From NCBI RefSeq assembly GCF_013122565.1, contig NZ_CP053258.1: DNA of 64,000 bases. The stretch is one strand, 5' to 3'. Positions 20,805-49,472 of this stretch are shown here, piece after piece. The notes under the pieces were generated by a model. That model saw nothing but the letters and a program-made list of their open reading frames with translations, was not told the origin of the DNA and ran no database searches. Each line of letters starts with the position of its first letter. The first letter of the stretch is position 1. This DNA comes from Escherichia coli. GTDB lineage: Bacteria > Pseudomonadota > Gammaproteobacteria > Enterobacterales > Enterobacteriaceae. Position numbers and translations under genes: made by a program.

Positions 20805-21389
20805 GTGAATCTGATGACGACGATAACAGGCGTTGTGCTGGCGGGCGGTAAAGCCAGACGAATGGGCGGCGTAGATAAAGGATTGCTGGAATTAAATGGC
20901 AAACCGCTGTGGCAACATGTCGCTGACGCGCTTATGACGCAGCTCTCTCACGTCGTGGTTAATGCTAATCGTCATCAGGAAATCTATCAGGCAAGCGGTC
21001 TGAAAGTGATTGAAGATTCACTGGCGGATTACCCAGGCCCTCTGGCAGGAATGCTTTCAGTAATGCAGCAGGAAGCTGGTGAGTGGTTTTTGTTTTGTCC
21101 GTGCGATACGCCTTACATTCCCCATGATTTAGCCGCCCGGCTTAATCATCAGCGCAAAGATGCGCCTGTCGTGTGGGTCCATGACGGTGAACGCGATCAC
21201 CCGACTATTGCTCTGGTAAACCGCGCTATTGAGCCTTTGTTGCAGGAATATTTGCAAACCGGAGAACGACGGGTAATGGCATTCTTGCGTCTGGCTGGCG
21301 GGCATGCGGTTGATTTCAGCGATCATAAAGATGCATTTGTTAACGTGAATACGCCAGAGGAGCTTGCCCGATGGCAGGAAAAACGATGA
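20805..21389 (+). CDS. mobA: Molybdenum cofactor guanylyltransferase MobA
   Basis: 194-aa [20 protein letters not shown] nucleotide-binding motif. Confidence 0.93.
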
Positions 21390-21898
21390 TACCGTTGCTC
21401 GCCTTTGCTGCGTGGAGTGGCACCGGAAAAACTACGCTTTTGAAAAAACTGATCCCGGCATTATGCACCAGAGGGATCCGTCCGGGGCTGATTAAGCATA
21501 CGCACCATGATATGGATGTTGATAAGCCAGGCAAAGATAGCTATGAGCTGCGCAAGGCTGGCGCGGCACAAACCATCGTTGCCAGCCAGCAACGATGGGC
21601 CTTGATGACGGAAACACCAGACGAAGAAGAGCTGGATCTACATTTTCTCGCCAGTCGAATGGATACCTCAAAGCTGGATTTGATTCTGGTCGAAGGGTTT
21701 AAGCATGAAGAGATCGCAAAGATTGTGCTGTTTCGCGATAGAGCCGGGCATCGACCGGAAGAATTAGTGATAGACAGGCATGTTATTGCTGTAGCCAGTG
21801 ATGTGCCGCTTAATCTTGATGTCGCGTTACTGGATATTAATGATGTTGAGGGGCTGGCTGATTTTGTGGTGGAGTGGATGCAAAAGCAGGACGGATAA
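21371..21898 (+). CDS. mobB: Molybdopterin-guanine dinucleotide biosynthesis adapter MobB
   Basis: 175-aa ORF with Walker A GTGKTT; overlaps mobA 3' end. Confidence 0.92.
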
Positions 21899-21904
21899 GC
21901 AAGA

Positions 21905-21950
21905 GTAGGCTGGATAAGACGCGCCAGCGTCGCATCCGGCATTTTTTTCT
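21905..21950. repeat. REP element
   Basis: ggctggataagacgcgccagcgtcgcatccggc. Confidence 0.7.
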
Positions 21951-21954
21951 GCGC

Positions 21955-21990
21955 CAATGCAAAAAGGCCATCCGTCAGGATGGCCTTTCG
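21955..21990 (-). terminator. rrn operon terminator downstream of 5S rRNA
   Basis: aaaggccatcctgacggatggccttttt hairpin on the minus strand. Confidence 0.8.
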
Positions 21991-21999
21991 CTTAATTTG

Positions 22000-22119
22000 A
22001 TGCCTGGCAGTTCCCTACTCTCGCATGGGGAGACCCCACACTACCATCGGCGCTACGGCGTTTCACTTCTGAGTTCGGCATGGGGTCAGGTGGGACCACC
22101 GCGCTACGGCCGCCAGGCA
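22000..22119 (-). rRNA. rrfA: 5S ribosomal RNA
   Basis: Reverse complement matches TGCCTGGCGGCCGTAGCGCGGTGGTCCCACCTGACCCCATGCCGAACTCAG...GGGAACTGCCAGGCAT. Confidence 0.97.
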
Positions 22120-22211
22120 AATTCTGTTTTATCAGACCGCTTCTGCGTTCTGATTTAATCTGGATCAGGCTGAAAATCTTCTCTCATCCGCCAAAACAGC
22201 TTCGGCGTTGT

Positions 22212-25115
<2,904 letters not shown>

Positions 25116-25289
25116 TCACAACCCGAAGATGTTTCACTTCAGAGTTGCGAAAATTTGAGAGACTCACGAACAACTTTCGTTGTTCAGTGTTTCAATTTTC
25201 AGCTTGATCCAGATTTTTAAAGAGCAAAACTTCGCAGTGAACCTTTGCAGGTACACTCTGAAGTATTTTTTATTTAATCACTACAGAGA

Positions 25290-25365
25290 TGGTGGAGCTA
25301 TGCGGGATCGAACCGCAGACCTCCTGCGTGCAAAGCAGGCGCTCTCCCAGCTGAGCTATAGCCCC
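25290..25365 (-). tRNA. alaT: tRNA-Ala (anticodon UGC), rrn spacer
   Basis: rc = GGGGCTATAGCTCAGCTGGGAGAGCGCCTGCTTTGCACGCAGGAGGTCTGCGGTTCGATCCCGCATAGCTCCACCA. Confidence 0.97.
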
Positions 25366-25407
25366 ATAACATGTAGTTAAAACCTCTTCAAATTTGCGGT
25401 GCAAATT

Positions 25408-25484
<77 letters not shown>

Positions 25485-25552
25485 GTAGAGGTTTTACTGC
25501 TCATTTTCATCAGACAATCTGTGTGAGCACTGCAAAGTACAGTTCTTTAAGG

Positions 25553-27094
<1,542 letters not shown>

Positions 27095-27264
27095 AAAAGT
27101 TTGATGCTCAAAGAATTAAACTTCGTAATGAATTACGTGTTCACTCTTGAGACTTGGTATTCATTTTTCGTCTTGCGACGTTAAGAATCCGTATCTTCGA
27201 GTGCCCACACAGATTGTCTGATAAATTGTTAAAGAGCAGTGCCGCTTCGCTTTTTCTCAGCGGC

Positions 27265-27305
27265 GCGGGGTGTGCATAATACGCTTTCCCGCTACAGAGT
27301 CAAGC
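27265..27305 (-). promoter_or_regulatory. rrn P2 promoter
   Basis: Minus strand TTGACT ... TATTATG with downstream GC-rich discriminator (cacaccccgcgccgc). Confidence 0.7.
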
Positions 27306-27379
27306 ATTTTTTTGCTTTTCTCTGTTGAGATTCTCAGGAGAACCCCGCTGACCCGGCGGCGTGTTTGCCGTTGTTCCGT

Positions 27380-27470
27380 GTCAGTGGTGGCGCATTATAG
27401 GGAGTTATTCCGGCCTGACAAGAGGAAATTTAAAATAATTTTCTGACCGCGCATTTTTTATTCTTTATGC
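27380..27470 (-). promoter_or_regulatory. rrn P1 promoter with AT-rich UP element/Fis region
   Basis: Minus strand TTGTCAGGCCGGAATAACTCCCTATAATGCGCCACCACTG, the canonical rrn P1 core, with AT-rich upstream tract. Confidence 0.8.
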
Positions 27471-28016
27471 TTATTTCAGCGTCGGTTTGTCGGTTAAATG
27501 GGCGATTTCTCGGGCGAAATTTGCCACCTGCTCCCAATCGGTATAGACAACTTCTTTGCGCGTATCCGTTTCACCGCCTGACATCTTCATAATTAGCTTG
27601 ATCATAAAACGATCGTACCAGCGATAACGTGGGTAACGCAGCGCCCCGGCAATGACCGCGCAGCGATCGGGACGCCATTGCGAGTTCATCAGAAACTTCC
27701 GCGCGTAGCTGTTGGTCTGTGGAGTACGCTTCTCCGGTTTGCGCGCCACCAGGTTTACGGAATAAAAGGCGCTCGGCATCGAATTCAGTCGCGTCGCATG
27801 TTTTTTGACAAATTCCTGGAACGCAGAGTGGTAGTGACCATAGCGAATAGAAGCACCAATGACCACACGGTCATAATTTTCCCATTGTGGTTCTTCAATG
27901 CGGTGCACATTGGCGACATCCGTCTGGATCCCCAGTTCTTTCAGTTCCGAAGCCAGGTAGGAGGCAATCTCGCGCGTTTGTCCGTCCCTTGTTGAGAAAA
28001 GAATTAATGTTTTCAC
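27471..28016 (-). CDS. hemG: Protoporphyrinogen IX dehydrogenase (menaquinone-dependent), flavodoxin-like
   Basis: 181-aa [25 protein letters not shown], flavodoxin fold with long-chain insert. Confidence 0.93.
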
Positions 28017-28027
28017 GTATTACTCCA

Positions 28028-29479
28028 TCATTCACGCCAGAAAGTCGGGGTAAAGAGCACCAGCAATGTAAAGACCTCGAGACGACCAAACAGCATGTTG
28101 GCAATCAGGATCCATTTAGCCACCGGGTTCATACTGGTAAAGTTATCAGCAACCACGCCAAGCCCTGGCCCCAGGTTATTCAATGTCGCAACAACTGAGG
28201 CAAAGGCAGAAAAGTCATCCACGCCCGTGGCGATAATCGCCAGCATACTGACAATAAACACCAATGCATAGGCGGAGAAAAATCCCCAAACGGCTTCGAG
28301 GATACGTTCCGGCAGTGCGCGATTCCCCAGCTTAATGCTATAGACGGCGTTCGGATGCACCAGTCGTTTCAGCTCACGGTTCCCCTGCTTAAACAGCAGC
28401 AGGATGCGGATCACTTTCAGGCCACCGCCCGTTGACCCGGCACAACCGCCGATAAAAGCTGAACATAAAAGCAGTACCGGCAAAAAGAGCGGCCAGCGGG
28501 CAATGCTGTCAGTCGTAAACCCGGCGGTTGTCGCCATCGACACCACCTGGAAAAACGCCTGGTTAATTGTCATCAGCGCCGAACTGTAGACATTATGAAA
28601 CCACAGTACGAGGGTACAAATAATCACCAGCGTAAACTGTACGCCGATAAACATGCGAAATTCCGGATCGCGCCAATAAACCTTCAGACTACGCCCACTT
28701 AATAGTGAAAAGTGCAGACCGTAGTTACAGCCGGAGATCAGCAGAAAGATAGCAATGATAGTGTTAATTGTCGGGCTGTCGAAATAACCGATACTGGCAT
28801 CATGTGTCGAGAAGCCGCCAATAGCGATAGTCGCAAAGCTATGGCCGATGGCATCAAAGGCATCCATTCCGGCAAACCACAACGCCAGCGCACAGGCGAC
28901 GGTCAGCAAGACATAAATCAACCACAGGGTTTTCGCCGTTTCCGCAATTCGCGGGCGCATTTTGTTATCTTTCAGCGGGCCGGGCATTTCTGCGCGATAG
29001 AGCTGCATCCCACCCACGCCGAGGATAGGCAGTATCGCAACCGCTAACACGATGATCCCCATCCCGCCAAACCATTGCAGCATCTGGCGATAAAAGAGGA
29101 TGGCGTGAGGGAGCGAATCCAGCCCCACCAGCGTAGTGGCCCCGGTGGTGGTCAGGCCAGAGAAAGATTCAAAAAACGCATCGGTAATCGTGAGGTTCGG
29201 GCTTTCCGAGAAGATAAAAGGGAGCGCACCGACGCTACCCAGCACGGTCCAGAACAGCACCACTATCAGAAACCCCTCACGGGATTTAAGTTCGCCTTTC
29301 TCTTTGCGGTTCGGCCACCACAGCATAGAGCCAATGGCGAGGGCGACAAAAAAGGTCTGGGTAAAAGCGCGGCCCGCTCCATCCCGGTAGATGAGTGCTA
29401 CCAGCCCAGGGATAATCATGGTCCCTGAAAATAAGATGACCAGTAGTCCAACGATTCGGGTAATGGCGCGAAAATGCAT
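28028..29479 (-). CDS. trkH: Trk system potassium uptake protein TrkH
   Basis: 483-aa polytopic membrane ORF with repeated GF/GG selectivity-like motifs. Confidence 0.93.
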   Translation of the reverse strand: MHFRAITRIVGLLVILFSGTMIIPGLVALIYRDGAGRAFTQTFFVALAIGSMLWWPNRKEKGELKSREGFLIVVLFWTVLGSVGALPFIFSESPNLTITDAFFESFSGLTTTGATTLVGLDSLPHAILFYRQMLQWFGGMGIIVLAVAILPILGVGGMQLYRAEMPGPLKDNKMRPRIAETAKTLWLIYVLLTVACALALWFAGMDAFDAIGHSFATIAIGGFSTHDASIGYFDSPTINTIIAIFLLISGCNYGLHFSLLSGRSLKVYWRDPEFRMFIGVQFTLVIICTLVLWFHNVYSSALMTINQAFFQVVSMATTAGFTTDSIARWPLFLPVLLLCSAFIGGCAGSTGGGLKVIRILLLFKQGNRELKRLVHPNAVYSIKLGNRALPERILEAVWGFFSAYALVFIVSMLAIIATGVDDFSAFASVVATLNNLGPGLGVVADNFTSMNPVAKWILIANMLFGRLEVFTLLVLFTPTFWRE

Positions 29480-29517
29480 CTCTGCCGCTTCCTTAGTTCT
29501 GCAAAACGAAGTGGGGA

Positions 29518-30132
29518 TTATTCTTCAATCGCTAACAATTGCAATGAACCACGGCTAAAATCCGCCAGCTTTGCGGAAAATTCAGCCACTTTCGCCGCCG
29601 GAAGCGCCACCCGCAGCAGAACGAATGCCTGATAATCACTGTTGATAATTTTGCCGTCACACTGCCCCAGCAACGCTTCAATGCCGGTTAACTGATGATA
29701 TTCACATTGCAAAGTATATTCGGTTAATGGCGTCTTGCGTTGGGTCGTTAGCTGGCGCAGCGCCTGATTCACGCCGCCGCCATACGCTTTCACTAACCCA
29801 CCGGTGCCAAGCAATATGCCGCCGTAGTAGCGCACTACCACAGCGGTAATTTCCCCAACGCCGCTGCCCATTAGCTGGGCGAGCATCGGTTTACCTGCCG
29901 TTCCCGCCGGCTCCCCATCGTCAGAGAAACCCAGCTGTTGTGAATCATCCGGCGCACCCGCCACCCACGCCACGCAATGGTGCCGGGCATCGGGGTGTTC
30001 TGCCCGTACCGATTCAACAAACGCTTTCGCCGCCTCAACGCCATCGGTATGCGCCAACATCGTTATGAAGCGGCTCTTTTTGATCTCTTCAACGACCGTG
30101 ACCGGTGCCGCAGGAATTAACCAGCTTTCCAT
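29518..30132 (-). CDS. yigZ: IMPACT-family protein YigZ
   Basis: ORF with UPF0029/IMPACT N-domain; start set at [10 protein letters not shown]; abuts pepQ. Confidence 0.85.
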   Translation of the reverse strand: MESWLIPAAPVTVVEEIKKSRFITMLAHTDGVEAAKAFVESVRAEHPDARHHCVAWVAGAPDDSQQLGFSDDGEPAGTAGKPMLAQLMGSGVGEITAVVVRYYGGILLGTGGLVKAYGGGVNQALRQLTTQRKTPLTEYTLQCEYHQLTGIEALLGQCDGKIINSDYQAFVLLRVALPAAKVAEFSAKLADFSRGSLQLLAIEE

Positions 30133-31463
30133 CACGCCAGTTTCAGATCCCGGGTCATGTTTTCCACGTTGTTTTCGTGGATCACCACGTTGTCTTCGAT
30201 ACGAATGCCGCCGAACGGTTTCAGTGCTTCAATTTTCTGCCAGTTGAAGTGCTTGCTGAACTGCCCTTCACGCCACGGTGCCAGCAGCGATTCAATGAAG
30301 TAAATACCCGGTTCGATGGTTAACACCATGCCCGGCTGGAGAATACGGGTGCAGCGCAGGTACGGATATTTTGCCGGTGCCGCGAGGTGCGTACCGCTAT
30401 CATCTTGCATAAAGCCAGCTACGTCATGCACCTGCAGGCCCAGCGGATGGCCGATACCGTGCGGCATAAACGGTCCGGTGAGATCGTTTTCGACCATCGC
30501 TTCTTCACTCATATCGGTGATGATTTGATGTTTACGCAGCAATTTGGCGATGCGCTGATGGAACTGGATGTGGTAATCCACATAGCTGACGCCTGCTTTC
30601 ATGGTGGCGATCAGCGCCAGTTGTTCATCATTTACGTCTTTCACCAGCTGTGCGTAGTCGTTGTCACTTTTTGCCGACCAGGTACGAGTCAGGTCAGCCG
30701 CATAGCCGTTATATTCGGCCCCGGCATCCAGCAGGAAGCTGCGCATCTCTTCCGGTGCCTGATGATCCAGTTTGGTATAATGCAGTACCGCAGCGTGTTC
30801 ATTAAGCGCCACAATGTTGCTGTAAGGTACGTCGGTATCACGATGACCGGTCGCGGTCAGATAAGCAATGTTGATATCGAACTCGCTCATGCCAGAACGG
30901 AACGCTTCTTCTGCCGCGCGATGACCGTTGACCGCCATTTTCTGCGCTTCACGCATACAGGCCAGTTCGTACTCGGTTTTGAAGGAGCGATAGTAATGCA
31001 GGTAGTCGATCACCCCTTTCGGGTTGATGTTGCTGGCCTCAATACCCAGTTGCAGCGCACGTTCCGGCACCGGACCGATATAACCGATATTGCCGCGCGC
31101 AGCAGGCAGCAGGCTACCAATGCCATCGGCTTTCGGCAGCGCGATCACTTCCACATCTTCAGTCCAGAAGGAGTTCGGCAGCGGTTCGACGTTGTGCCAG
31201 TAATCAACCGGCAGATAAAACCACAGTTTCGGCTTGTTCACGCCATCCACCAGCAACCAGCAGTTTGGCACCTGAGTTACCGGCACCCATGCTTTGAATT
31301 GCGGGTTCACTTTAAACGGATAGGGATGATCGTCGAGAAAAACGTTGAACAGTTCGCCGGAGTGAATAAGTAACGCATCCAGCTTGAAGCGCGCCAGCGC
31401 ATCGCGAGTCCGTTCCTGTAAGGTAGCTATATGATTTTTATAGAGTGAGGCCAGTGATTCCAT
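30132..31463 (-). CDS. pepQ: Xaa-Pro dipeptidase (prolidase), M24B metallopeptidase
   Basis: 443-aa [29 protein letters not shown] with [13 protein letters not shown] metal-binding motif. Confidence 0.95.
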
Positions 31464-31610
31464 TTTTTACCCTTCTGTTTTTTTGACCTTAAGTCTCCGC
31501 ATCTTAGCACATCGTTCATCCAGAGCGTGATTTCTGCCGAGCGTGATCAGATCGGCATTTCTTTAATCTTTTGTTTGCATATTTTTAACACAAAATACAC
31601 ACTTCGACTC

Positions 31611-31627
31611 ATCTGGTACGACCAGAT
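31611..31627 (+). promoter_or_regulatory. FadR operator in fadB promoter
   Basis: atctggtacgaccagat palindrome about 30 nt upstream of fadB start. Confidence 0.7.
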
Positions 31628-31652
31628 CACCTTGCGGATTCAGGAGACTGAC

Positions 31653-33842
31653 ATGCTTTACAAAGGCGACACCCTGTACCTTGACTGGCTGGAAGATGGC
31701 ATTGCCGAACTGGTATTTGATGCCCCAGGTTCAGTTAATAAACTCGACACTGCGACCGTCGCCAGCCTCGGCGAGGCCATCGGCGTGCTGGAACAGCAAT
31801 CAGATCTAAAAGGGCTGCTGCTGCGTTCGAACAAAGCAGCCTTTATCGTCGGTGCTGATATCACCGAATTTTTGTCCCTGTTCCTCGTTCCTGAAGAACA
31901 GTTAAGCCAGTGGCTGCATTTTGCCAATAGCGTGTTTAATCGCCTGGAAGATCTGCCGGTGCCGACCATTGCTGCCGTCAACGGCTATGCGCTGGGCGGT
32001 GGCTGCGAATGCGTGCTGGCGACCGATTATCGTCTGGCGACGCCGGATCTGCGCATCGGTCTGCCGGAAACCAAACTGGGCATCATGCCGGGCTTTGGCG
32101 GTTCTGTACGTATGCCACGTATGCTGGGCGCTGACAGTGCGCTGGAAATCATTGCCGCCGGTAAAGATGTCGGCGCGGATCAGGCGCTGAAAATCGGTCT
32201 GGTGGATGGTGTAGTCAAAGCAGAAAAACTGGTTGAAGGGGCGATGGCGATTTTACGCCAGGCCATTAACGGCGACCTCGACTGGAAAGCAAAACGTCAG
32301 CCGAAGCTGGAACCGCTAAAACTGAGCAAGATTGAAGCCACCATGAGCTTCACCATCGCTAAAGGGATGGTCGCACAAACGGCGGGGAAACATTATCCGG
32401 CCCCCATCACCGCAGTAAAAACCATTGAAGCTGCGGCCCGTTTTGGTCGTGAAGAAGCATTAAACCTGGAAAACAAAAGTTTTGTCCCGCTGGCGCACAC
32501 CAACGAAGCCCGCGCACTGGTCGGCATCTTCCTTAACGATCAATATGTAAAAGGCAAAGCGAAGAAACTCACCAAAGACGTTGAAACCCCGAAACAGGCC
32601 GCTGTGCTGGGCGCAGGCATTATGGGCGGCGGCATCGCTTACCAGTCTGCATGGAAAGGCGTGCCGGTTGTCATGAAAGATATCAACGACAAGTCGTTAA
32701 CCCTCGGCATGACCGAAGCCGCGAAACTGCTGAACAAGCAGCTTGAACGCGGCAAGATCGATGGTCTGAAACTGGCTGGCGTGATCTCCACGATCCACCC
32801 AACGCTCGATTACGCCGGATTTGACCGCGTGGATGTTGTAGTAGAAGCGGTTGTTGAAAACCCGAAAGTGAAAAAAGCCGTACTGGCAGAAACCGAGCAG
32901 AAAGTACGCCCGGATACCGTGCTGGCGTCTAACACTTCAACCATTCCTATCAGCGAACTGGCCAACGCGCTGGAACGTCCGGAAAACTTCTGCGGGATGC
33001 ACTTCTTTAACCCGGTCCACCGAATGCCGTTGGTGGAAATTATTCGCGGCGAGAAAAGCTCCGACGAAACCATCGCGAAAGTCGTCGCCTGGGCGAGCAA
33101 GATGGGCAAAACGCCGATTGTGGTTAACGACTGCCCCGGCTTCTTCGTCAACCGTGTGCTGTTCCCGTATTTCGCCGGTTTCAGCCAGCTGCTGCGCGAC
33201 GGCGCGGATTTCCGCAAGATCGACAAAGTGATGGAAAAACAGTTTGGCTGGCCGATGGGTCCGGCATATCTGCTGGACGTTGTGGGCATTGACACCGCGC
33301 ATCACGCTCAGGCAGTCATGGCAGCAGGCTTCCCGCAGCGGATGCAGAAAGATTATCGCGATGCCATCGACGCGCTGTTTGATGCCAACCGCTTTGGTCA
33401 GAAGAACGGCCTCGGTTTCTGGCGTTATAAAGAAGACAGCAAAGGTAAGCCGAAGAAAGAAGAAGACGCCGCTGTTGACGACCTGCTGGCAGAAGTGAGC
33501 CAGCCGAAGCGCGATTTCAGCGAAGAAGAGATTATCGCCCGCATGATGATCCCGATGGTCAACGAAGTGGTGCGCTGTCTGGAAGAAGGCATTATCGCCA
33601 CTCCGGCAGAAGCGGATATGGCGCTGGTCTACGGCCTGGGCTTCCCTCCGTTCCACGGCGGCGCGTTCCGCTGGCTGGACACCCTCGGCAGCGCAAAATA
33701 CCTCGATATGGCACAGCAATATCAGCACCTCGGCCCGCTATACGAAGTGCCGGAAGGTCTGCGTAATAAAGCACGTCATAACGAACCGTACTATCCCCCG
33801 GTTGAGCCAGCCCGTCCGGTTGGCGACCTGAAAACGGCTTAA
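31653..33842 (+). CDS. fadB: Fatty acid oxidation complex alpha subunit (enoyl-CoA hydratase / 3-hydroxyacyl-CoA dehydrogenase)
   Basis: Start set at [20 protein letters not shown] (729 aa); crotonase and NAD-binding [10 protein letters not shown] motifs. Confidence 0.95.
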
Positions 33843-35015
<1,173 letters not shown>

Positions 35016-35017
35016 GC

Positions 35018-35220
<203 letters not shown>

Positions 35221-35266
35221 GTCATAGATCTAAATGCCACTGAATAACAGTTTAGTTGCCGTTCTT

Positions 35267-35292
35267 CCCGCCTGTCAGGGGCGGGTTTTTTA
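35267..35292 (+). terminator. Intrinsic terminator (fadBA operon end)
   Basis: cccgcctgtcaggggcggg hairpin followed by TTTTTT. Confidence 0.65.
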
Positions 35293-35296
35293 TATC

Positions 35297-35998
35297 TCAG
35301 ATAAATGCAAACGCATCGCCAAACAGGCGATCTTCCCGCGCATTACGCTCACTGCAAAACAGGTCACGAGCAATTTTCGCCATCTCAAAACGTCCGGCAA
35401 TATAGATATCATGCTCTGCCAGCGTACCGTGATCCTGCAATACCGCCGTTAACACGGTGCCAGTACGCCCACGCCAGCCCGCTTCCGGTTGTTCAACCAC
35501 CGGCACCACTTGCAGACCAGGGTGCTTTAACGAAAGCGCCTCAAGCTCGCAGAGATCATACAGATGCTGCTCTTCACGCCCGCCCCAGTAAATGGTGATA
35601 TCACGGTTTGGGTTACGCGCCAACGCTGTCAGCAAAATCGAGCGGGCATAAGAGAACCCGGTGCCGCCCGCAATCAAAATCATCGGACGCTCTTCATCAT
35701 CGCGCAGCCACGCTTCTCCGTGGGGAATATCGACCACGATTTGATGATCTTTGAGGATGCGGTCCATGACTGCTTTCGCGTAAAGGTTGATTTCAGAAGC
35801 GCCAATATGCAGCTCGATAAACCCTTTTTCATCCGGCGTCGAGGCCATTGAGAACGGACGTTTGTCGCGCTCATCCATCACTACCATCAAATACTGACCA
35901 GCACGAAAAGAAAAGGCCGCGTCTGGCACGATGCGGACACGATATACGGTATCCGTGATAGCTTCTACCGAGGTCACTTTACAGCTTAAGGTTGTCAT
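35297..35998 (-). CDS. fre: NAD(P)H-flavin reductase
   Basis: Start set at [21 protein letters not shown] (233 aa); FNR-like RPFSMAS flavin motif. Confidence 0.93.
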
Positions 35999-36043
35999 GC
36001 GCTTTCTCTGTCGGATCGATAAATAGGGCAAAACAAACGCGCA

Positions 36044-37537
36044 TCAGGCGCTTTTACCGTTGTTAAAAATAGCCAGTTCATCCCAGATGGCGTCAATATG
36101 CGCGACAACATCTGGATCTTTTTTGATGGGACGCCCCCATTCACGCTGGGTTTCCCCCGGCCATTTATTCGTGGCATCCAGCCCCATTTTTGAACCCAGC
36201 CCGGAGACAGGCGAGGCAAAATCCAGATAATCAATAGGCGTATTTTCTACCAGAACAGTATCCCGCGCCGGGTCCATACGGGTGGTAATCGCCCAAATCA
36301 CATCGTTCCAGTCGCGTGCGTTGACGTCATCATCGCAAACGATCACAAATTTAGTGTACATAAACTGGCGTAAGAACGACCAGACGCCCATCATGACGCG
36401 CTTCGCGTGTCCGGCGTACTGCTTTTTGATTGTCACTACCGCCAGGCGATAAGAACAGCCTTCCGGCGGCAGGTAGAAATCGACAATTTCCGGGAACTGT
36501 TTTTGCAGAATCGGCACGAACACTTCGTTCAACGCCACGCCCAGCACTGCCGGTTCATCTGGTGGACGGCCGGTATAAGTGGAGTGATAAATCGCATCTT
36601 CACGCTGGGTAATATGCGTCACGGTAAATACCGGGAAACTATCGACTTCGTTATAGTAACCGGTGTGGTCGCCATACGGCCCTTCCGGCGCAGTTTCGCC
36701 TTGTTCGATATACCCTTCCAGCACAATCTCCGCACTGGCGGGCACTTCAAGGTCATTGGAAATACACTTCACCACTTCGGTCTTGGTGCCACGTAGCAAT
36801 CCGGCAAACGCATACTCTGAAAGCGTATCCGGAACGGGAGTGACTGCACCGAGAATCGTGGCGGGATCGGCACCCAGCGCCACAGAAACCGGGAAACGTT
36901 CGCCCGGATGCGCCGCACACCACTCCTGATAATCCAGCGCGCCGCCGCGATGCGACAGCCAGCGCATAATCAGTTTGTTTTTACCAATCAGCTGCTGGCG
37001 ATAAATGCCCAGATTCTGCCGCTCTTTATGCGGGCCGCGCGTCACGGTCAGCCCCCAGGTAATCAGCGGCGCGGCATCTTCCGGCCAGCAGGTCATAATG
37101 GGAATGCGATTGAGATCGACGTCATCGCCAGAGACGATTTTTTGTTGGCAAGGCGCACCACGCAGCCGCTTTGTCGGCATGTTCAATACTTGCTTAAACT
37201 GCGGCAGTTTATCAAACAGGTCGCGGAAACCTTTTGGCGGCTCCGGCTCTTTCAGAAACGCCAATAATTTACCAACTTCACGCAGCGCCGAAACATCTTC
37301 CTGCCCCATGCCCATCGCCACGCGCTTTGGCGTACCGAACAGGTTGCACAGCACCGGCATTGAGTAGCCTTTAGGGTTTTCGAACAACAGCGCAGGCCCA
37401 CCGGCACGCAAAGTGCGGTCAGCAATTTCAGTGATTTCCAGATGCGGATCCACCGGGAGCGTGATACGTTTTAGCTCACCCTGCTGTTCAAGCAGCGTCA
37501 GGAAGTCGCGTAAATCGTTATATTTCATGGCGTCCAT
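36044..37537 (-). CDS. ubiD: 3-octaprenyl-4-hydroxybenzoate decarboxylase (prFMN-dependent)
   Basis: 497-aa [28 protein letters not shown]. Confidence 0.95.
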
Positions 37538-37658
37538 TGTAGCCTCTTAATCTACGCCCATTATACGGCGTTCATCTTTGCGATGCTGTAAATTTGTTAA
37601 ATTAGCGTGAACTCTGACGGTATAACGCAAACCGGGGAATATAATTAACTTAGCGTAA

Positions 37659-38971
<1,313 letters not shown>

Positions 38972-39012
38972 CCTGAACTCCATATGACAACCGCCCTGAC
39001 GGGCGGTTGAAT

Positions 39013-39789
39013 TTATTCTTCAGTTTTTTCGCTTTCTGCTTCAGCGTCGTTTTCCTCTTCCCGATTTCGCCCTTTACCAACGTAAAAGCGTGAGAAGAAG
39101 ACACCGATTTCAAACAGGCAGTACATCGGGATCGCTAACAGCGTTTGCGAGAAGACATCTGGCGGCGTCAGCAGCATCCCGACAACGAATGCGCCAACCA
39201 GCACATACGGGCGTTTTTTGCGTAAATCCTCTGGCGAAGTAATCCCCATCCAGCACAACAGCACAATTGCCACCGGCACTTCAAAGGAGACACCAAACGC
39301 CATAAACAACGCCATAACGAAGCTTAAATAGCTGGCGATGTCGGTGGATACCTGTACCCCTTCCGGCGCGGTATTGGCAAGGAAGCCAAATGCCAGCGGA
39401 AAGACCACAAAGTAGGCGAACGCCATGCCGATATAAAAAAGCAGAGAGCTGGAAACCAGCAGCGGCACCACCAGGCGACGTTCATGCTTATACAGCGCTG
39501 GGGCGATAAACGCCCACACCTGATAGAGAATCACCGGCGCTGACAGAATCAGCGACACCATAAAGGTCAGCTTGATCGGCGTAAAGAACGGCGAGGCCAC
39601 GTCGGTGGCGATCATCGTTGAACCTTGCGGCAACTGCTTGATCAATGGCGCGGATACCAGGTGATAGATGTCATTGGCGAAATAGACCAGACACAGGAAT
39701 ATCACGATCACCGCGATAATGCAGTTCAGCAGACGCTTACGCAGCTCAATCAGATGCGTGATAAGCGGTTGAGTATCTTCTACAGACAT
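39013..39789 (-). CDS. tatC: Twin-arginine translocase subunit TatC
   Basis: 258-aa six-[26 protein letters not shown]. Confidence 0.96.
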
Positions 39790-39791
39790 GT

Positions 39792-40307
39792 TTACGGTTT
39801 ATCACTCGACGAAGGGGAAGGTGCAGCGGTTTTCGGTTCAGCGTCCGCAGCAGGTTTTACCACCGGCTCTGGCGTGGTTTCTGGCTTCTGTTCCGGCGAA
39901 CTGGCCTGCGTTTGTGCAGCGGCAGGCGTTACGCCCTCATGCGCAGCTTCATTGTCTTTCACCACCGAGTTATGGATGGTGTGCGCTTCATCGCTCGCCT
40001 TTTCAGGATCGTTTGCAACGTAGGAACGCTTCATCGACTCCGCGGCCTGGCGTAGTTCATCCATCGACGCTTTCAGTTCGGGCGTCAGGTTAGTGAGGCT
40101 CGCCTTTTCAACCTTTTTCAGACTGTCCTGAAACTCCTGGAGTTTTAACTCCTGGGTCAGTTCGTTCTGCACCGTTGTCGCCAGTGAACGCAACGCGCGA
40201 ATCCAGCCCGCTACCGTTTTTACCGCCACAGGCAGTCGTTGCGGCCCCAGAACGACGAGGCCGATGATGAACACCAATAGCAGTTCGCTAAAACCGATAT
40301 CAAACAC
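39792..40307 (-). CDS. tatB: Twin-arginine translocase subunit TatB
   Basis: 171-aa [29 protein letters not shown]. Confidence 0.96.
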
Positions 40308-40310
40308 GGA

Positions 40311-40580
40311 TTACACCTGCTCTTTATCGTGGCGCTTCGCGTCTTCTGTTTTAGCCTGTTCCTGATTCGTATCCGCCTGCTTATCGGCGATAGTTTTCGC
40401 AGTAAAATCAGCATCCTGACTGGTTTTATCCTGCTTTGGTTCATCATCGCTCATTGCTTTTTTAAAGCCTTTGATCGACGCACCAAGATCGGAACCGATG
40501 GAGCCGAGCTTTTTGGTGCCAAAAAGCAGTACAACGATGACGGCAATAATCAATAACTGCCAAATACTGATACCACCCAT
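40311..40580 (-). CDS. tatA: Twin-arginine translocase subunit TatA
   Basis: Start set at [27 protein letters not shown] (89 aa). Confidence 0.95.
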
Positions 40581-40658
40581 ACATGTTCCTCTGTGGTAGA
40601 TGATGATTAAACAAGGCCGCATTATACGTTACACGGCCCGCCTTGAGCGATGAAAAAA

Positions 40659-42901
<2,243 letters not shown>

Positions 42902-42914
42902 TTCCGGTCTCCTG

Positions 42915-43670
42915 TCAGAACTTATAACCACGATGCAGCGCCACAACCCCTGCCGTCAGATTGTAGTAGTCGACACTTTCGAATCCGGCATCCTGCATCA
43001 TGGCTTTCAGGGTATCCTGATCGGGATGCATACGGATGGATTCTGCCAGATAACGGTAGCTGTCGGCGTCGTTCGCGACCAGTGAGCCAATACGCGGCAG
43101 CACATGGAAGGAGTATGCATCATAGGCTTTGCTCAGCGGCTCGATAATTGGCTTCGAGAACTCAAGCACCAGCAGGCGGCCGCCGGGTTTCAGCACGCGA
43201 TACATTGAACGCAGTGCTTTATCTTTGTCGGTGACGTTACGCAGACCAAACGAAATGGTGATGCAATCAAAGGTGTTATCCGGGAACGGCAGCGCCTCAG
43301 CGTTCGCCTGAACATACTCAACGTTGCCAATCACACCGATATTACGCAGCTTCTCGCGGCCCATTTTGAGCATGGATTCATTGATATCAGCAAGGACCAC
43401 TTTGCCAGTTTCTCCGACCAGGCGGGAGAATTTTGCTGTCAGGTCGCCGGTGCCACCAGCCAGATCCAGCACGGTCTGCCCACGGCGTACGCCGCTGCAA
43501 TCAATCGTGAATCGCTTCCACAAACGATGAATACCGAATGACATCAAATCATTCATGACATCGTATTTCGATGCCACGGAATGGAAAACGTGGGCGACCA
43601 TATCCGCTTTTTGTTCCTTCGCGACGGTCTGAAAACCAAAGTGCGTCGTTTCTTGTGACTTATCCACCAT
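42915..43670 (-). CDS. ubiE: Ubiquinone/menaquinone C-methyltransferase
   Basis: 251-aa ORF with SAM-binding [10 protein letters not shown] motif. Confidence 0.96.
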
Positions 43671-43764
43671 CTCAATGCCTGCTCATCAAAAAATTGTTCC
43701 AGAAGTGTAACAGATTGGGCGTCGATGCCCTAGATTTCTACCCGGCTTAACTACCCCCAATGGG

Positions 43765-45192
43765 CTAGCGCGACTGCTGATTATATTCATCATCGCGTTG
43801 ATAAGCTTCATCATTCGGCTGCTCCGGAACCGACCGAAGTCGATACTCTTCATCCTGGCTCACCGCCTGTTCAGCCAAATCCGGATTAATCTCGCGTTTA
43901 ATTTCTACTCCTAAACCGCGAAACGCTTCTGCCTGCGCCAGCACATTTCCGCGACCTGAAGAGAGTTTTTTCATTGCCTGGCGGTAGTTATCCTGCGCTT
44001 TGTCGAGACTTTGACCAATCGCTGACATGTCATCGACGAACAAACGCATCTTGTCGTACAGCTTGCTGGCACGATCGGCGATTTGCTGGGCGTTGCGGCT
44101 TTGATGCTCATAACGCCACAGGTTGGCGATAGTGCGCAGCGCCACCAGCAGCGTAGTCGGGCTAACCAGCATGATATTGTTTTTCAACGCTTCGGTGATC
44201 AGCTCCGGCTGGCGGTCAAGCGCCAGTAAAAAAGCGGGTTCAACGGGAATAAACATCAGCACGTAATCCAGGGTTCGCAGCCCCGGCAGCTGTTGATAAT
44301 CTTTGCGTCCCAGCAAACGGATATGGTTACGCACCGACGCGATATGTTCCTGTAGCGCGCTTTCGCGGGTGTAGTCGTCTTCGGCGTTAAAATAGCGTTC
44401 ATAGGCGACCAGCGTCATTTTGGCGTCGATCACCACATCTTTTCCCTGCGGCAGCCGCACGATGACATCCGGCTGCATCCGCGAGCGGGCGTCATTTTCG
44501 ATGCTGACCTGGGTTTCATATTCATACCCTTCACGCAGACCGGAAGCCTCCAGCACCCGCGTCAATACTACCTCGCCCCAGTTGCCCTGGGTTTTATTGT
44601 CGCCTTTCAGCGCGCGCGTCAGGTTGATCGCTTCCTGGGCCATTTGCGCGTTGAGCTGCTGGAGATTGCGAATTTCGTGGGTCAGGGTATGGCGTTCTTG
44701 TGCTTCTTTACCAAAGCTGTCCTGAACCTGACGGCGGAAACCGTCCAGTTGTTCACGTAGCGGCGACAACAGGCTGTTCAGGCTCTGACGGTTTTGCTCA
44801 TCAACCCGGCGATTGCTGTGCTCAAAAATACGGTTGGCGAGGTTTTCAAACTGCTCACTGAGGCGCTGCTCGCTGTTAATCATCTGGCGAATTTTATCGT
44901 CAGCATGTTGCTGTGCGGCTTCCATCCGCGTGGTTACTTCACGCAGATCGGCCTCCAGAGAGGTGTTAATACTTTGCAGGCTGCGCACTTCGTTATTGAG
45001 TAACTCGCACTCTGCACGCCAGTGCTCGCTTAGGGTAATTTGTTGTTTTGCCGCGCTTAACTCCGCGACCATCTCTTCACGTTCAGCTAATTGCTCGGCT
45101 TTTTGCTGCGCATGTTGATAACTGGCAAACAGCCAGCCAATTGCCACACCCACCAACGCAATAACTGCGTAAACCATGATTGAGAAATCCAC
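43765..45192 (-). CDS. rmuC: DNA recombination protein RmuC
   Basis: 475-aa ORF with N-terminal TM, long coiled coil, RmuC C-terminal domain. Confidence 0.92.
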   Translation of the reverse strand: MDFSIMVYAVIALVGVAIGWLFASYQHAQQKAEQLAEREEMVAELSAAKQQITLSEHWRAECELLNNEVRSLQSINTSLEADLREVTTRMEAAQQHADDKIRQMINSEQRLSEQFENLANRIFEHSNRRVDEQNRQSLNSLLSPLREQLDGFRRQVQDSFGKEAQERHTLTHEIRNLQQLNAQMAQEAINLTRALKGDNKTQGNWGEVVLTRVLEASGLREGYEYETQVSIENDARSRMQPDVIVRLPQGKDVVIDAKMTLVAYERYFNAEDDYTRESALQEHIASVRNHIRLLGRKDYQQLPGLRTLDYVLMFIPVEPAFLLALDRQPELITEALKNNIMLVSPTTLLVALRTIANLWRYEHQSRNAQQIADRASKLYDKMRLFVDDMSAIGQSLDKAQDNYRQAMKKLSSGRGNVLAQAEAFRGLGVEIKREINPDLAEQAVSQDEEYRLRSVPEQPNDEAYQRDDEYNQQSR

Positions 45193-45283
45193 AACGCCTC
45201 CTGACGCAACAACTTACCCGCACAAAATAGAATTGTGCTGTACAAACGTCCAGTTGGAAAGGCATTTCCTGCGAGGTGCTACG

Positions 45284-45316
45284 CAAAAATACAAAAGGCC
45301 GAACGCGTCGGCCTTC
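45284..45316 (-). terminator. Intrinsic terminator downstream of udp
   Basis: aaggccgacgcgttcggcctttt-gtattttt on the minus strand. Confidence 0.65.
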
Positions 45317-45332
45317 AGACAGGAGAAGAGAA

Positions 45333-46094
45333 TTACAGCAGACGACGCGCCGCTTCCACCACGATTTTCACCGCTTGGCTTTCAGTTTGTTTCATCGTCT
45401 CAGCATTCGGGATCTCTTGCTGGGTGCGGTTAACGATAACACCCGCTACCATACCGGCACGCAGGCCCTGAGTTGCACACATGGTCAGCAGGGTTGCAGA
45501 TTCCATTTCATAGTTCATTACGCCCATCGCCTGCCACTCTTCCATAGAACCTTTAAAGTGACGAACTACGCGACCAGAGTAAGTATCGTAACGTTCCTGA
45601 CCTGGGTAGAAGGTATCAGAAGAAGCTGTCACGCCAACGTGAGTTGTCGCGCCAATGGATTTCGCAGCTTCAACCAGCGCAGTCGTACATTCGAAATCAG
45701 CGACAGCCGGGAATTCCAGCGGTGCGAAGTGCAGGCTCGCGCCATCCAGACGGACAGACGCCGTGGTAACCAGGACATCACCCACATTAATATGCGGCTG
45801 AATAGCGCCCGTTGTACCGATACGCAGGAAGGTGCGAATGCCCAGCTGTGCCAGCTCTTCAACAGCAATAGAGGTAGAAGGGCCACCGATACCGGTAGAG
45901 CAGACAATAACAGGTTTACCATCCAGCTCTGCACGCCAGGTGGTGAATTCGCGGTGAGATGCCAGCTTAACCGGCTTATCCATCAGCGCGGCGATCTTTT
46001 CCACACGATCCGGGTCGCCAGGGACGATGGCAAGCGTAGCCCCTTGTAAATCGTTTTTAGTGAGGCCGAGATGAAAAACATCAGACTTGGACAT
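45333..46094 (-). CDS. udp: Uridine phosphorylase
   Basis: Start set at [30 protein letters not shown] (253 aa). Confidence 0.96.
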
Positions 46095-46355
46095 ATACAA
46101 CTCCTCTGTGAATCGGTTTAGTCAGAAGAAGCAAAAAGACACTTTACCGAAGGGTTTAACATTTTTTCGTGATACTCATCACCATGACGCAAATGCGTTG
46201 CATAAATTTACCCACCAAAAGTGATGCAAATCACATAAATCACTCTTCATTCTGCAGGACTGCATAAAAGATGAGCCGATTCAGGCAATGTGATTTGTTG
46301 CATGCTGACTATAGTTAACATTGCGCAACATTTTTATAAGGGTACGGAGAATACC

Positions 46356-47171
46356 ATGGCAACAACACAACAATCTGGATTTGCACCTGCTGCATCGCCT
46401 CTCGCTTCGACCATCGTTCAGACCCCGGACGACGCGATTGTGGCAGGCTTCACCTCTATCCCTTCACAAGGGGATAACATGCCTGCTTACCAGGCAAGAC
46501 CAAAGCAAAGCGATGGCCCACTGCCAGTGGTCATTGTAGTGCAGGAAATTTTTGGCGTGCATGAACATATCCGCGACATTTGTCGCCGTCTGGCGCTGGA
46601 GGGGTATCTGGCTATCGCACCTGAACTTTACTTCCGCGAAGGCGATCCGAATGATTTTGCCGATATCCCCACGTTGCTTAGCGGTCTGGTAGCAAAAGTG
46701 CCTGACTCGCAGGTGCTGGCCGATCTCGATCATGTCGCCAGTTGGGCTTCCCGCAACGGCGGCGATGCTCATCATTTAATGATCACCGGATTCTGCTGGG
46801 GTGGACGTATCACGTGGTTGTATGCCGCGCATAATCCACAGCTAAAAGCCGCAGTGGCGTGGTATGGCAAACTGACGGGCGATAAGTCGCTGAATTCACC
46901 GAAACAACCTGTTGATATCGCAACCGATCTTAACGCGCCGGTTCTCGGCTTATATGGTGGTCAGGATAACAGCATTCCGCAGGAGAGCGTTGAAACCATG
47001 CGCCAGGCGCTGCGGGCTGCTAATGCGAAAGCAGAGATTATCGTGTACCCGGATGCCGGGCATGCATTCAACGCTGATTATCGCCCGAGCTATCATGCCG
47101 AATCTGCAAAAGATGGCTGGCAACGAATGCTGGAATGGTTCAGGCAGTATGGTGGGAAGAAGTCACTGTAA
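46356..47171 (+). CDS. ysgA: Dienelactone hydrolase family protein
   Basis: Start set at [11 protein letters not shown] (271 aa); alpha/beta hydrolase with GFCWGG nucleophile elbow. Confidence 0.85.
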
Positions 47172-47210
47172 TGATAAAAGGCCGGGTGGCGTTGCCACCC
47201 GGTTCGGATT

Positions 47211-49472
47211 TTACCCCCGACGCAAATTCTGCGCCGCCTGCACCATGTTCGCCAGTGCCGCGCGGGTTTCTGGCCAGCCGCGCGTTTTCAGGCCACAGTC
47301 CGGGTTGACCCACAGGCGCTCTGCCGGAATGCGTTTTGCCGCTTTCTTCAGCAAGGCTTCAATCCATTCCACGCTCGGTACGTTTGGCGAGTGAATGTCA
47401 TAGACGCCTGGACCGATTTCATTCGGATAATCAAACTCTTCGAACGACTCCAGCAACTCCATGTCAGAACGCGAGGTTTCGATGGTGATGACGTCTGCGT
47501 CCAGCGCCGCAATCGAATCCATGATGTCGTTGAACTCGCAATAACACATGTGGGTGTGGATTTGTGTGTCATCTTTCGCCACGGCGGCGTTGATACGGAA
47601 GGCCTCTACGCCCCACTGGAGATAGGCATCCCAGTCGCTACGACGCAGCGGTAAACCTTCGCGCAGCGCCGGTTCATCAATCTGGATGATGCCAATTCCT
47701 GCGGCTTCCAGGTCCGCCACTTCATCACGCAGCGCCAGCGCAATTTGTTTGGCGATGGTTTCACGGCTGACATCTTCACGCGGGAACGACCAGCAGAGAA
47801 TGGTCACCGGGCCAGTCAGCATCCCTTTCACCGGTTTATCAGTCAGAGATTGCGCATACTTCGCCCACTCCACGGTAATCGGTGCCGGGCGGCTAACGTC
47901 ACCAATGACAATCGGTGGCTTCACGCAGCGGGAACCGTAGCTCTGTACCCAACCGTTTTGCGTAAAGACAAAACCGTCGAGGTGCTCGCCAAAGTATTCC
48001 ACCATGTCATTACGCTCAGCCTCGCCATGAACCAGCACATCCAGTCCCAAACGTTCCTGCTCAACAATGGCCTGCTTGATATGTTCCGCAATGCCCGTGC
48101 GGTAGTTGTTAGCGTCGAGATTACCCTTTTTGAAATCCAGACGCAGGGTACGAATTTCCGTAGTTTGCGGGAAAGAACCAATCGTGGTGGTCGGCCATGC
48201 TGGGAGTTTAAAACGCGCACGCTGGGCTTCAGCACGCACTTCATAGACATTCGCACGCTGACTGTCCTGAGCGGTGATCGCTGCCAGACGCTTTTCCACC
48301 GCCGGATTATGTACGCGGGTTGAGTGACGACGCGCCTGAATCGGGGCGCTCCACTCTGCCAGAGCTGCCGTGTCACCACTGTTCAGCGCATCGCGCAGCA
48401 GTGCCAGTTCATGGCATTTTTGTAGGGCGAAGGCAAACCAGCTTTTCACTTCTGCATCAAGACGCGTTTCCACGCTCAGGTCGATGGGGCTGTGCAACAG
48501 TGAGCAGGAAGATGCCACCCACAAATCGCGTTTGCCGACAATGTCCTTAATTTGCGCATATTTCTCGGTAAGATCGGCGCGCCAGACGTTACGACCATTG
48601 ATCAGACCCGCAGACAGCAACCAGTCAGAAGGCAGGCGCTTGTGCAGTTCAGCAACGTCATCTTTACCATGTACAAGGTCCACATGCAGCCCCTGAACAG
48701 GCAGCGCAGTAATCGTGTCGAGGTTTGGCGTTACGCCTTCAAAATAAGTGGTCAGCAGCAGTTTCACCTGGCCCTGGAGCGCGTCGTAAGCGGGTTTGTA
48801 TGCGTCCAGCCACGCCTGCGGTAGTTCCAGTACCAGCGCGGGTTCGTCGATCTGTACCCACTCAATGCCGCGTTTTGCCAGTTCTGCCAGCACTTGCTGA
48901 TAAACCGGCAGAATGTCGTTCAGCAGGCTCAGGCGGTCAAATTGTTCACCTTTCACTTTCCCCAGCCACAGCCAGGTAACCGGCCCCAGCAGCACAGGTT
49001 TCACCTTGTGGCCCAGCGCCAGCGCCTCGTCCACTTCGTCCAGCAGCTGCGTCCAGGTCAGTTTGAACTGTTGGCCTTTAACGAACTCCGGCACCATGTA
49101 GTGATAGTTGGTGTTAAACCATTTGGTCATTTCCGCTGCCGCCGCAGGTTCGCCAGTCGGCGCACGTCCACGACCAATACGGAACAGGGTGTCGATATCT
49201 ACCGAACCATCTTTGTTCTGATGACGCGCCGGAACGTTACCCAGCAGCAGACTGGTGGTCAGTACATGATCGTACCAGGCAAAATCGCCCACCGGCAGCA
49301 GGTCGATACCCGCTTGCTTTTGTTGATCCCAGTGACGAGCACGCAATTCACGCCCTACCGCCAGCAGTTCTTCACGCGTGGAGTTCCCCGCCCAATAACT
49401 CTCTTGCGCTTTTTTCAGCTCGCGACGCAGGCCAACGCGAGGGAAACCGAGGGTGTGATTAAGAATTGTCAT
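47211..49472 (-). CDS. metE: Cobalamin-independent methionine synthase
   Basis: 753-aa [32 protein letters not shown]. Confidence 0.97.

What the first reader, a model, noticed from the sequence alone, without database searches (positions are those of the whole stretch)
27175..27470. Intact rrn P1/P2 tandem promoters directly abutting hemG
The canonical rrn P1 (TTGTCA/TATAAT with GC discriminator) and P2 are present, and the UP/Fis region runs right up to the hemG stop at 27471. The operon has the Ile/Ala spacer tRNAs and is flanked by mobB and hemG, which identifies it as the rrnA-type copy. It is useful as an anchor and for checking assembly collapse of rrn repeats.
Basis: partly seen in the sequence, partly recalled or inferred. 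Interest (0 to 1): 0.15.

Follow-up and report, generated by a model that had tools for sequence, protein, structure and literature searches.

The report
Ordinary E. coli rrnA promoter region

Summary
On the minus strand, hemG ends at 27471. It is followed by Fis site I, the UP element, rrn P1 (TTGTCA, 16 bp, TATAAT, discriminator GCGCCACC, +1 at 27385), P2 (TTGACT, 16 bp, TATTAT), the boxB/boxA leader and the 5' half of the 16S processing stem. Then come 16S, tRNA-Ile, tRNA-Ala, 23S, 5S, one terminator and convergent mobB. From inside hemG to about +54 of P1 the sequence is identical to K-12 rrnA.

Three corrections:
- The activating region probably does not stop at hemG. Only Fis site I and the UP element fit in the gap, and further candidate Fis sites lie over or inside the hemG 3' end. 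In K-12 rrnB, sites II and III likewise lie inside murI.
- Abutment is not special. In K-12 the upstream stop codons sit at -86 (rrnA), -82 (rrnB) and -77 (rrnH).
- "rrnA" is a positional label only. Against the K-12 copies the interior is a mosaic: rrnG-type patch before P2, rrsH-type 16S segment, rrnD-type spacer, single terminator. Other complete E. coli genomes carry the same variants at this locus, so this is allelic variation, not evidence of misassembly.

Already known; low interest.

The parts
27471..28016 (-). hemG coding sequence (181 aa, GTG start, TAA at 27473..27471). It differs from K-12 HemG by one residue (A32T).
27469..27527 (-). Candidate further Fis sites over the hemG stop codon and inside its last ~19 codons, centred at -91, -111, -123 and -134/-135. 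These are inferred from a consensus score only.
   Evidence: The same scorer recovers the K-12 rrnB sites at -71, -102 and -143; those positions are recalled from the literature.
27449..27463 (-). Fis site I, GAATAAAAAATGCGC, centred at -71 of P1
   Evidence: score 11.0, reached by fewer than 0.05% of 15-mers in the window. It sits at the same position as rrnB site I.
27423..27444 (-). UP element AGAAAATTATTTTAAATTTCCT (-59..-38), identical to K-12 rrnA, rrnB and rrnC
27385..27421 (-). rrn P1 core: -35 TTGTCA (27421..27416), 16-bp spacer, -10 TATAAT (27399..27394), discriminator GCGCCACC (27393..27386), start A at 27385
   Evidence: The start base is placed by identity with K-12 rrnB P1 (established knowledge).
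27307..27330 (-). Variable patch just upstream of P2 (the P2 UP-like A-rich region). It differs from K-12 rrnA, rrnB and rrnC and matches the K-12 rrnG type.
27276..27303 (-). rrn P2 core: -35 TTGACT (27303..27298), 16-bp spacer, -10 TATTAT (27281..27276). One spacer base is A where K-12 rrnA has G; K-12 rrnC, D, E and H also have A.
27241..27264 (-). boxB-like hairpin of the antitermination leader (GCCGC...GCGGC)
   Evidence: hairpin predicted in the fold; the name comes from established knowledge of rrn leaders
27226..27238 (-). boxA, TGCTCTTTAACAA, invariant in the window and all seven K-12 operons
27182..27226 (-). 5' strand of the 16S processing (RNase III) stem; it pairs with 25548..25505
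   Evidence: duplex -59.3 kcal/mol, against -22.4 +/- 3.7 for shuffled partners
25553..27094 (-). 16S rRNA gene
25505..25548 (-). 3' strand of the 16S processing stem, at the start of the 16S-23S spacer
25408..25484 (-). tRNA-Ile (GAT)
25290..25365 (-). tRNA-Ala (TGC)
22212..25115 (-). 23S rRNA gene
22000..22119 (-). 5S rRNA gene (Rfam match 22002..22117; 120 nt by alignment with K-12)
21961..21988 (-). The only intrinsic terminator of the operon (AAAGGCCATCC-TGAC-GGATGGCCTTT plus a T run), of the K-12 rrnB T2 / rrnG type. The T1 module of K-12 rrnA is absent.
21371..21898 (+). mobB, convergent with the rrn operon

Best explanation
The region is the regulatory region of the rRNA operon at the rrnA chromosomal position (trkH-hemG | rrn | mobB-mobA) of an Escherichia coli-group genome.

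How it works, by identity with the K-12 model promoters:
- RNA polymerase with sigma-70 starts at P1, the growth-rate-regulated major promoter. P1 is boosted by alpha-CTD contacts with the UP element and by Fis bound at -71 and further upstream. The G+C-rich discriminator and the 16-bp spacer make its open complex short-lived, which makes it sensitive to ppGpp/DksA and to the initiating NTP.
- Transcription also starts at P2, 118 bp downstream, which gives basal expression.
- Both transcripts pass the boxB-boxA leader, which loads the Nus antitermination complex.
- The leader then pairs with the sequence after 16S to form the RNase III processing stem.

Shown here: the sequence elements, their coordinates, their identity to K-12, the operon content and the flanks. 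Inferred from the K-12 literature: factor binding, start sites and regulation.

The upstream activating region very probably extends into the hemG reading frame. No terminator separates hemG from P1.
For: - P1 and P2 hexamers and spacers.
- 100% identity to K-12 rrnA from inside hemG to about +54 of P1. Downstream of the patch before P2, only 2 single-base differences up to the 16S start.
- Alignment with all seven K-12 promoter regions: the -10 hexamer plus discriminator, the P2 -35 and the boxA leader are invariant.
- rRNA and tRNA genes follow.
- Same gene order as K-12 and three other E. coli genomes.
- Present in 5425 of 5426 complete E. coli genomes, median 7 copies.
- Fis site I scores highest at exactly -71, and the scorer recovers the rrnB sites.
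- Processing-stem duplex of -59.3 kcal/mol, against -22.4 for shuffles.
- Literature: tandem P1/P2 about 120 bp apart, UP element, and 3-5 Fis sites on each rrn promoter (PMC4696680; PMC5179076).
Against: - Nothing in the sequence argues against it.
- The consensus matches are not above chance on their own.
- Fis sites beyond site I are only consensus-level predictions. Scores of 8.0 or more are reached by 1.4% of all 15-mers in the window, so some of these may be chance.
- Across four hemG sequences the 3' end is not less polymorphic than the rest: 3 differences in 150 nt against 10 in 396 nt. The comparison is underpowered.
- No expression data could be consulted for this strain.
Confidence: 0.95

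Rival explanations
1. The hemG and mobB flanks are real, but the operon between them is an assembly chimera: a collapsed or swapped rrn repeat, so the interior belongs to other rrn copies of the genome.
For: Against the K-12 copies the interior is a mosaic:
- The patch before P2 and the terminator are rrnG type.
- 16S positions 1002-1038 are rrsH type.
- The spacer is rrnD type: 3 differences, against 20 to rrnA.
- The 23S is nearest rrnB and rrnG: 9 differences each, against 29 to rrnA.
- It lacks the 2-nt insertion specific to K-12 rrlA.
The repeat is about 5.5 kb (about 27452 to about 21960), so short reads cannot span it.
Against: - Independent complete genomes carry the same variants at the hemG-mobB locus. 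Strain ES2 has 1 difference in 16S, 3 in the 437-nt spacer and 0 in 5S. Strain E9 has 1 difference in the 330-nt leader and the same rrsH-type 16S segment.
- Gene conversion among rrn copies is well documented, so K-12 copy signatures are not expected to transfer between strains.
- The flanks are collinear with K-12 and OW1E2 without a break.
- The promoter elements themselves are identical in rrnA, rrnB and rrnC, so the finding would stand either way.
Confidence: 0.05
2. The promoter-like hexamers are chance consensus matches with no function.
For: The number of sites with at least 10 of 12 hexamer matches in the window (3) is below the shuffled expectation of about 9. The scan of 21500..28200 found 4 sites, against 4.4 expected.
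Against: - Base-for-base identity with the experimentally characterised K-12 rrnA and rrnB P1 region, including the UP element and discriminator.
- The correct position ahead of the boxA leader and 16S.
- Conservation in essentially all E. coli genomes.
Confidence: 0.01

Closest known systems
E. coli K-12 rrnA P1-P2 regulatory region (hemG-rrsA intergenic region, b3850-b3851)
   Same: - Same flanking genes and orientation.
- hemG stop at -86 of P1 in both.
- Identical sequence from inside hemG through Fis site I, the UP element, the P1 core and on to about +54.
- Identical P2 hexamers, boxB/boxA leader and processing-stem strand.
   Different: - A 24-bp patch upstream of P2 (27330..27307) is of the K-12 rrnG type.
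- One base in the P2 spacer differs, as does one base 20 nt before 16S.
- Further downstream: an rrnD-type 437-nt spacer instead of the 446-nt type, no 2-nt insertion in 23S, and one terminator instead of T1, a 5S remnant and T2.
E. coli K-12 rrnB P1 (the model rRNA promoter) with the murI 3' end upstream
   Same: - Identical from -67 (TGCGCGGTCAG...) through the core promoter.
- Same architecture: a co-oriented upstream gene ending at -82, so that Fis sites II (-102) and III (-143) lie inside murI, as proposed here for hemG.
   Different: - Upstream of -68 the sequences are unrelated (murI against hemG). Fis site I has a different sequence (GGTTGAATGTTGCGC against GAATAAAAAATGCGC), and the further sites are placed differently.
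- rrnB has a tRNA-Glu spacer.
rrnA-position operons of other E. coli strains (ES2 NZ_CM184352.1, E9 NZ_CP104500.1)
   Same: They carry the same 'non-K-12' variants at the same locus: the rrnG-type patch (E9, ES2), the rrsH-type 16S segment (E9, ES2), the 437-nt spacer (ES2) and the single terminator (all).
   Different: None is identical. The best whole-operon match is 99.5%, and the flanking 24.6 kb is at most 98.5% identical to any of 5426 genomes.

Membership tests
Enterobacterial rrn P1-P2 tandem promoter region | Two sigma-70 promoters about 120 bp apart, upstream of a 16S gene | tested here: met
   The -10 hexamers are 118 bp apart. The P1 start is 291 nt before 16S. The ~120-bp spacing is stated in PMC4696680.
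Enterobacterial rrn P1-P2 tandem promoter region | P1 with near-consensus hexamers, a 16-bp spacer and a G+C-rich discriminator | tested here: met
   TTGTCA, 16 bp, TATAAT, GCGCCACC. Identical to K-12 rrnA, B, C and G.
Enterobacterial rrn P1-P2 tandem promoter region | A+T-rich UP element at about -40 to -60 | tested here: met
   AGAAAATTATTTTAAATTTCCT at -59..-38, identical to the K-12 rrnB UP element.
Enterobacterial rrn P1-P2 tandem promoter region | Fis binding sites upstream of the UP element (three to five per operon) | tested here: inconclusive
   Site I at -71 is a top-scoring consensus match. The further sites are weak consensus matches inside hemG. Binding itself cannot be tested here.
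Enterobacterial rrn P1-P2 tandem promoter region | boxB-boxA antitermination leader after P2 | tested here: met
   boxA TGCTCTTTAACAA is invariant in all eight aligned sequences. The boxB hairpin is predicted.
Enterobacterial rrn P1-P2 tandem promoter region | Transcription starts at P1 and P2; regulation by ppGpp/DksA, initiating NTP, Fis and H-NS | not testable with these tools
   Inferred from sequence identity with the K-12 promoters.
rrnA (the operon at the hemG-mobB position) | Located between trkH-hemG and mobB-mobA | tested here: met
   ORFs and collinearity with K-12, E9, OW1E2 and ES2.
rrnA (the operon at the hemG-mobB position) | 16S-23S spacer with tRNA-Ile and tRNA-Ala, and no distal tRNA after 5S | tested here: met
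   This spacer type is shared with rrnD and rrnH, so it is necessary but not sufficient.
rrnA (the operon at the hemG-mobB position) | K-12 rrnA sequence signatures: 446-nt spacer subtype, 2-nt insertion in 23S, T1 plus T2 terminators | tested here: not met
   These are K-12 allele features, not features of the locus, because they also vary among other strains at the same locus.

The most novel reading that the evidence does not exclude
The last ~19 codons of hemG double as the Fis-binding upstream activator of rrnA P1. With no terminator in the 49-bp gap, trkH-hemG transcription also runs into P1. The end of a haem-biosynthesis gene and the strongest promoter class of the cell would then constrain, and possibly interfere with, each other. 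Separately, the rrnG-type patch before P2 at rrnA (seen in roughly an eighth of E. coli genomes) could change P2 strength in a copy-specific way.
Probability: 0.5. Interest if true: 0.15.

Novelty: already known. Interest (0 to 1): 0.06.

Why it matters
It matters little beyond annotation. The region is a reliable anchor. The unique sequence ends about 12-19 bp after the hemG stop, near 27452-27459, where similarity to other rrn copies begins. The repeat then runs about 5.5 kb to the terminator near 21960, so only reads longer than that can verify the copy.

The useful caution is that rrn copy identity in E. coli is positional. Sequence signatures taken from K-12 (spacer subtype, 16S and 23S variants, terminator module) do not identify the copy in another strain, because gene conversion shuffles them.

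Tried and rejected
- Two exact-pattern scans of the species-representative genome collection found nothing: the window-specific patch plus P2, and the hemG-stop-to-P1 junction. So the source genome could not be named, and conservation of the junction outside E. coli could not be shown.
- Hirvonen et al. 2001, the footprinting of Fis on all seven rrn P1 regions, is not held in the library. Fis positions for rrnA therefore rest on my own consensus scorer, calibrated on the rrnB positions I recall.
- I looked for an identical genome among 5426 complete E. coli genomes, so as to compare its other six operons.
- I tested whether the hemG 3' end is less polymorphic than the rest, as dual use would predict. 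There was no signal in four sequences.
- I looked for a terminator between hemG and P1. The scan found none and the fold showed only weak pairing.
- I rejected the chance-match reading and gave the chimera reading low weight (see the rival explanations).

Full report
**What is there**

Everything below is read on the minus strand.

Downstream of hemG, in order:
- a 15-bp Fis-consensus sequence, GAATAAAAAATGCGC (27463..27449);
- the A+T-rich UP element AGAAAATTATTTTAAATTTCCT (27444..27423);
- P1: -35 TTGTCA (27421..27416), a 16-bp spacer, -10 TATAAT (27399..27394) and discriminator GCGCCACC;
- P2: -35 TTGACT (27303..27298), a 16-bp spacer and -10 TATTAT (27281..27276);
- a boxB-like hairpin (27264..27241) and boxA TGCTCTTTAACAA (27238..27226);
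- a 45-nt stretch (27226..27182) that pairs with the sequence just after 16S (25548..25505). The duplex is -59.3 kcal/mol, against -22.4 +/- 3.7 for shuffled partners. This is the RNase III processing stem.

Rfam and ARAGORN then find the following:
- 16S at 27094..25553;
- tRNA-Ile(GAT) at 25484..25408;
- tRNA-Ala(TGC) at 25365..25290;
- 23S at 25115..22212;
- 5S at 22117..22002.

One intrinsic terminator (21988..21961), a REP element and the stop codon of convergent mobB (21898) follow.

**Is it more than chance?**

Not by hexamer matching alone. The whole window has 3 sites with at least 10 of 12 matches, against about 9 in composition-preserving shuffles. It has a single site with at least 11 of 12, which is P1, against 0.57 expected.

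The evidence is identity and context:
- From inside hemG to about +54 of P1 the window is identical to K-12 MG1655 rrnA.
- The -10 hexamer plus discriminator, the P2 -35 and the whole boxA leader are invariant across the window and all seven K-12 operons.
- A 601-nt query across the junction hits 5425 of 5426 complete E. coli genomes, with a median of seven places per genome. 5374 genomes hold one full-length, hemG-linked place.

**Which operon it is**

The gene order is the K-12 rrnA locus and is the same in strains E9, OW1E2 and ES2: yigZ-trkH-hemG | 16S-Ile-Ala-23S-5S | mobB-mobA-yihD-srkA. The window is collinear with K-12 from bipA to uvrD at 97.5-98.5% identity. The positional assignment to rrnA is therefore sound.

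First, the activating region. I place the P1 start at 27385 by identity with rrnB P1, whose start site is established knowledge. The hemG stop then ends at -86. The gap holds only the UP element (-59..-38) and one Fis site centred at -71.

I wrote a simple Fis consensus scorer. It gives its highest scores in K-12 rrnB at exactly -71, -102 and -143, which are the positions of sites I-III as I recall them from the literature. In the window it gives the maximum score (11.0) at -71; fewer than 0.05% of the window's 15-mers reach a score of 10. It gives weaker candidates at -91, -111, -123 and -134. These overlap the hemG stop codon or lie in its last ~19 codons.

Published work states that each rrn promoter has three to five Fis sites (PMC4696680). 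The activator therefore very probably extends into hemG rather than stopping at it. The weaker candidates could be chance, since 1.4% of all 15-mers reach a score of 8. The footprinting paper that would settle this is not in the library.

Second, the abutment is normal. In K-12 the upstream co-oriented stop codons end at -86 (hemG, rrnA), -82 (murI, rrnB) and -77 (gmhB, rrnH). In the model operon rrnB, Fis sites II and III likewise lie inside murI.

Third, "rrnA-type" has no meaning at the sequence level. I compared the window segment by segment with all seven K-12 operons:

| Segment | Differences from K-12 copies |
|---|---|
| 330-nt leader | 4 from rrnG, 13 from rrnA |
| 16S positions 79-93 | match rrsC and rrsD |
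| 16S positions 1002-1038 | match only rrsH |
| 437-nt spacer | 3 from rrnD, 20 from rrnA and rrnH (446 nt) |
| 23S | 9 each from rrlB and rrlG, 29 from rrlA; lacks the rrlA-specific 2-nt insertion |
| After 5S | a single T2-type terminator, as in rrnG |

K-12 rrnA, like rrnB, has an extra 168-bp module after 5S: T1 and a 5S remnant ahead of T2.

This mosaic does not argue for misassembly, because the same variants are found at the hemG-mobB locus of independent complete genomes. ES2 differs by 1 base in 16S, 3 in the spacer and 0 in 5S. E9 differs by 1 base in the leader and has the same rrsH-type 16S segment. OW1E2, E9 and ES2 all have the single terminator.

About 704 of 5432 records match the junction query at 99% or better, which in practice requires the rrnG-type patch. 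This is the familiar outcome of gene conversion among rrn copies.

**Limits**

The source genome could not be identified. No complete E. coli genome is closer than 98.5% over the 24.6 kb beside the operon. Both exact-pattern scans of the species-representative collection returned nothing.

For planning such a check: similarity to other rrn copies begins 12-19 bp after the hemG stop, at about 27452-27459. It runs to about 21960, so the repeat is about 5.5 kb.

**Other points**

No terminator lies between hemG and P1, so trkH-hemG transcripts presumably run into the promoter. This is an inference. The hemG 3' end is not visibly less polymorphic than the rest of the gene in four sequences: 3 differences in 150 nt against 10 in 396 nt. 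The comparison is underpowered. Nothing of note lies on the plus strand within 27175..27470.

**Verdict**

This is an intact, textbook rrn P1-P2 control region at the rrnA position. It is already known and of low interest. It is useful only as an anchor, and as a reminder that rrn copy identity is positional.

Noticed in passing
window 56612..57070 (-): A 152-aa ORF is inserted between recQ and pldA. Only 2 of 5426 complete E. coli genomes carry it (97.1% identity). One of them annotates it as a WapI family immunity protein, so it may be an orphan immunity gene with no toxin gene beside it.
   Followed up: partly
window 73..2530 (+): Next to bipA, where K-12 has yihL and onward, the window has two radical SAM genes (STM4012 and STM4011 families) and a Cof-type HAD hydrolase. 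The full block is present in 157 of 5426 E. coli genomes, at 96.8% identity at best.
   Followed up: partly
window 27380..52000 and the whole window: No complete E. coli genome is closer than about 98.5% over 24.6 kb. Identity to K-12 is a fairly even 97.5-98.5% along the window. hemG itself, however, differs from strain E9 by only 2 bases. The source is an E. coli-group lineage that is poorly represented among complete genomes, with local recombination.
   Followed up: partly
window 21961..22000, compared with L001 8138..8330: The window's rrnA has one terminator directly after 5S. K-12 rrnA has an extra 168-bp module (T1 plus a partial 5S copy) before the same terminator, as in rrnB. The 5S 3' end and the remnant form direct repeats that could mediate gain or loss of the module.
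   Followed up: yes
window 59551..60521: The K-12 yigG-yigF segment is replaced by unrelated sequence with two small membrane-like ORFs: 105 aa on the minus strand and 128 aa on the plus strand.
   Followed up: no
window 23S gene, positions 137, 142 and 547 of the rRNA; 16S position 474; 23S-5S spacer position 49: These bases are found in none of the seven K-12 copies. 23S has A137 and T142 where K-12 has T and A, a swap that looks like a compensatory pair change.
   Followed up: no
window 25123..25222 (-): An Rfam StyR-44 match covers the last 100 nt of the 16S-23S spacer just before 23S. This is the usual place for that family.
   Followed up: no
window 25542..25541 (spacer positions 11-12): The 3' strand of the 16S processing stem has CT where the K-12 Ile/Ala operons (rrnA, D, H) have GC. 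I did not analyse whether this changes pairing with the leader strand.
   Followed up: no
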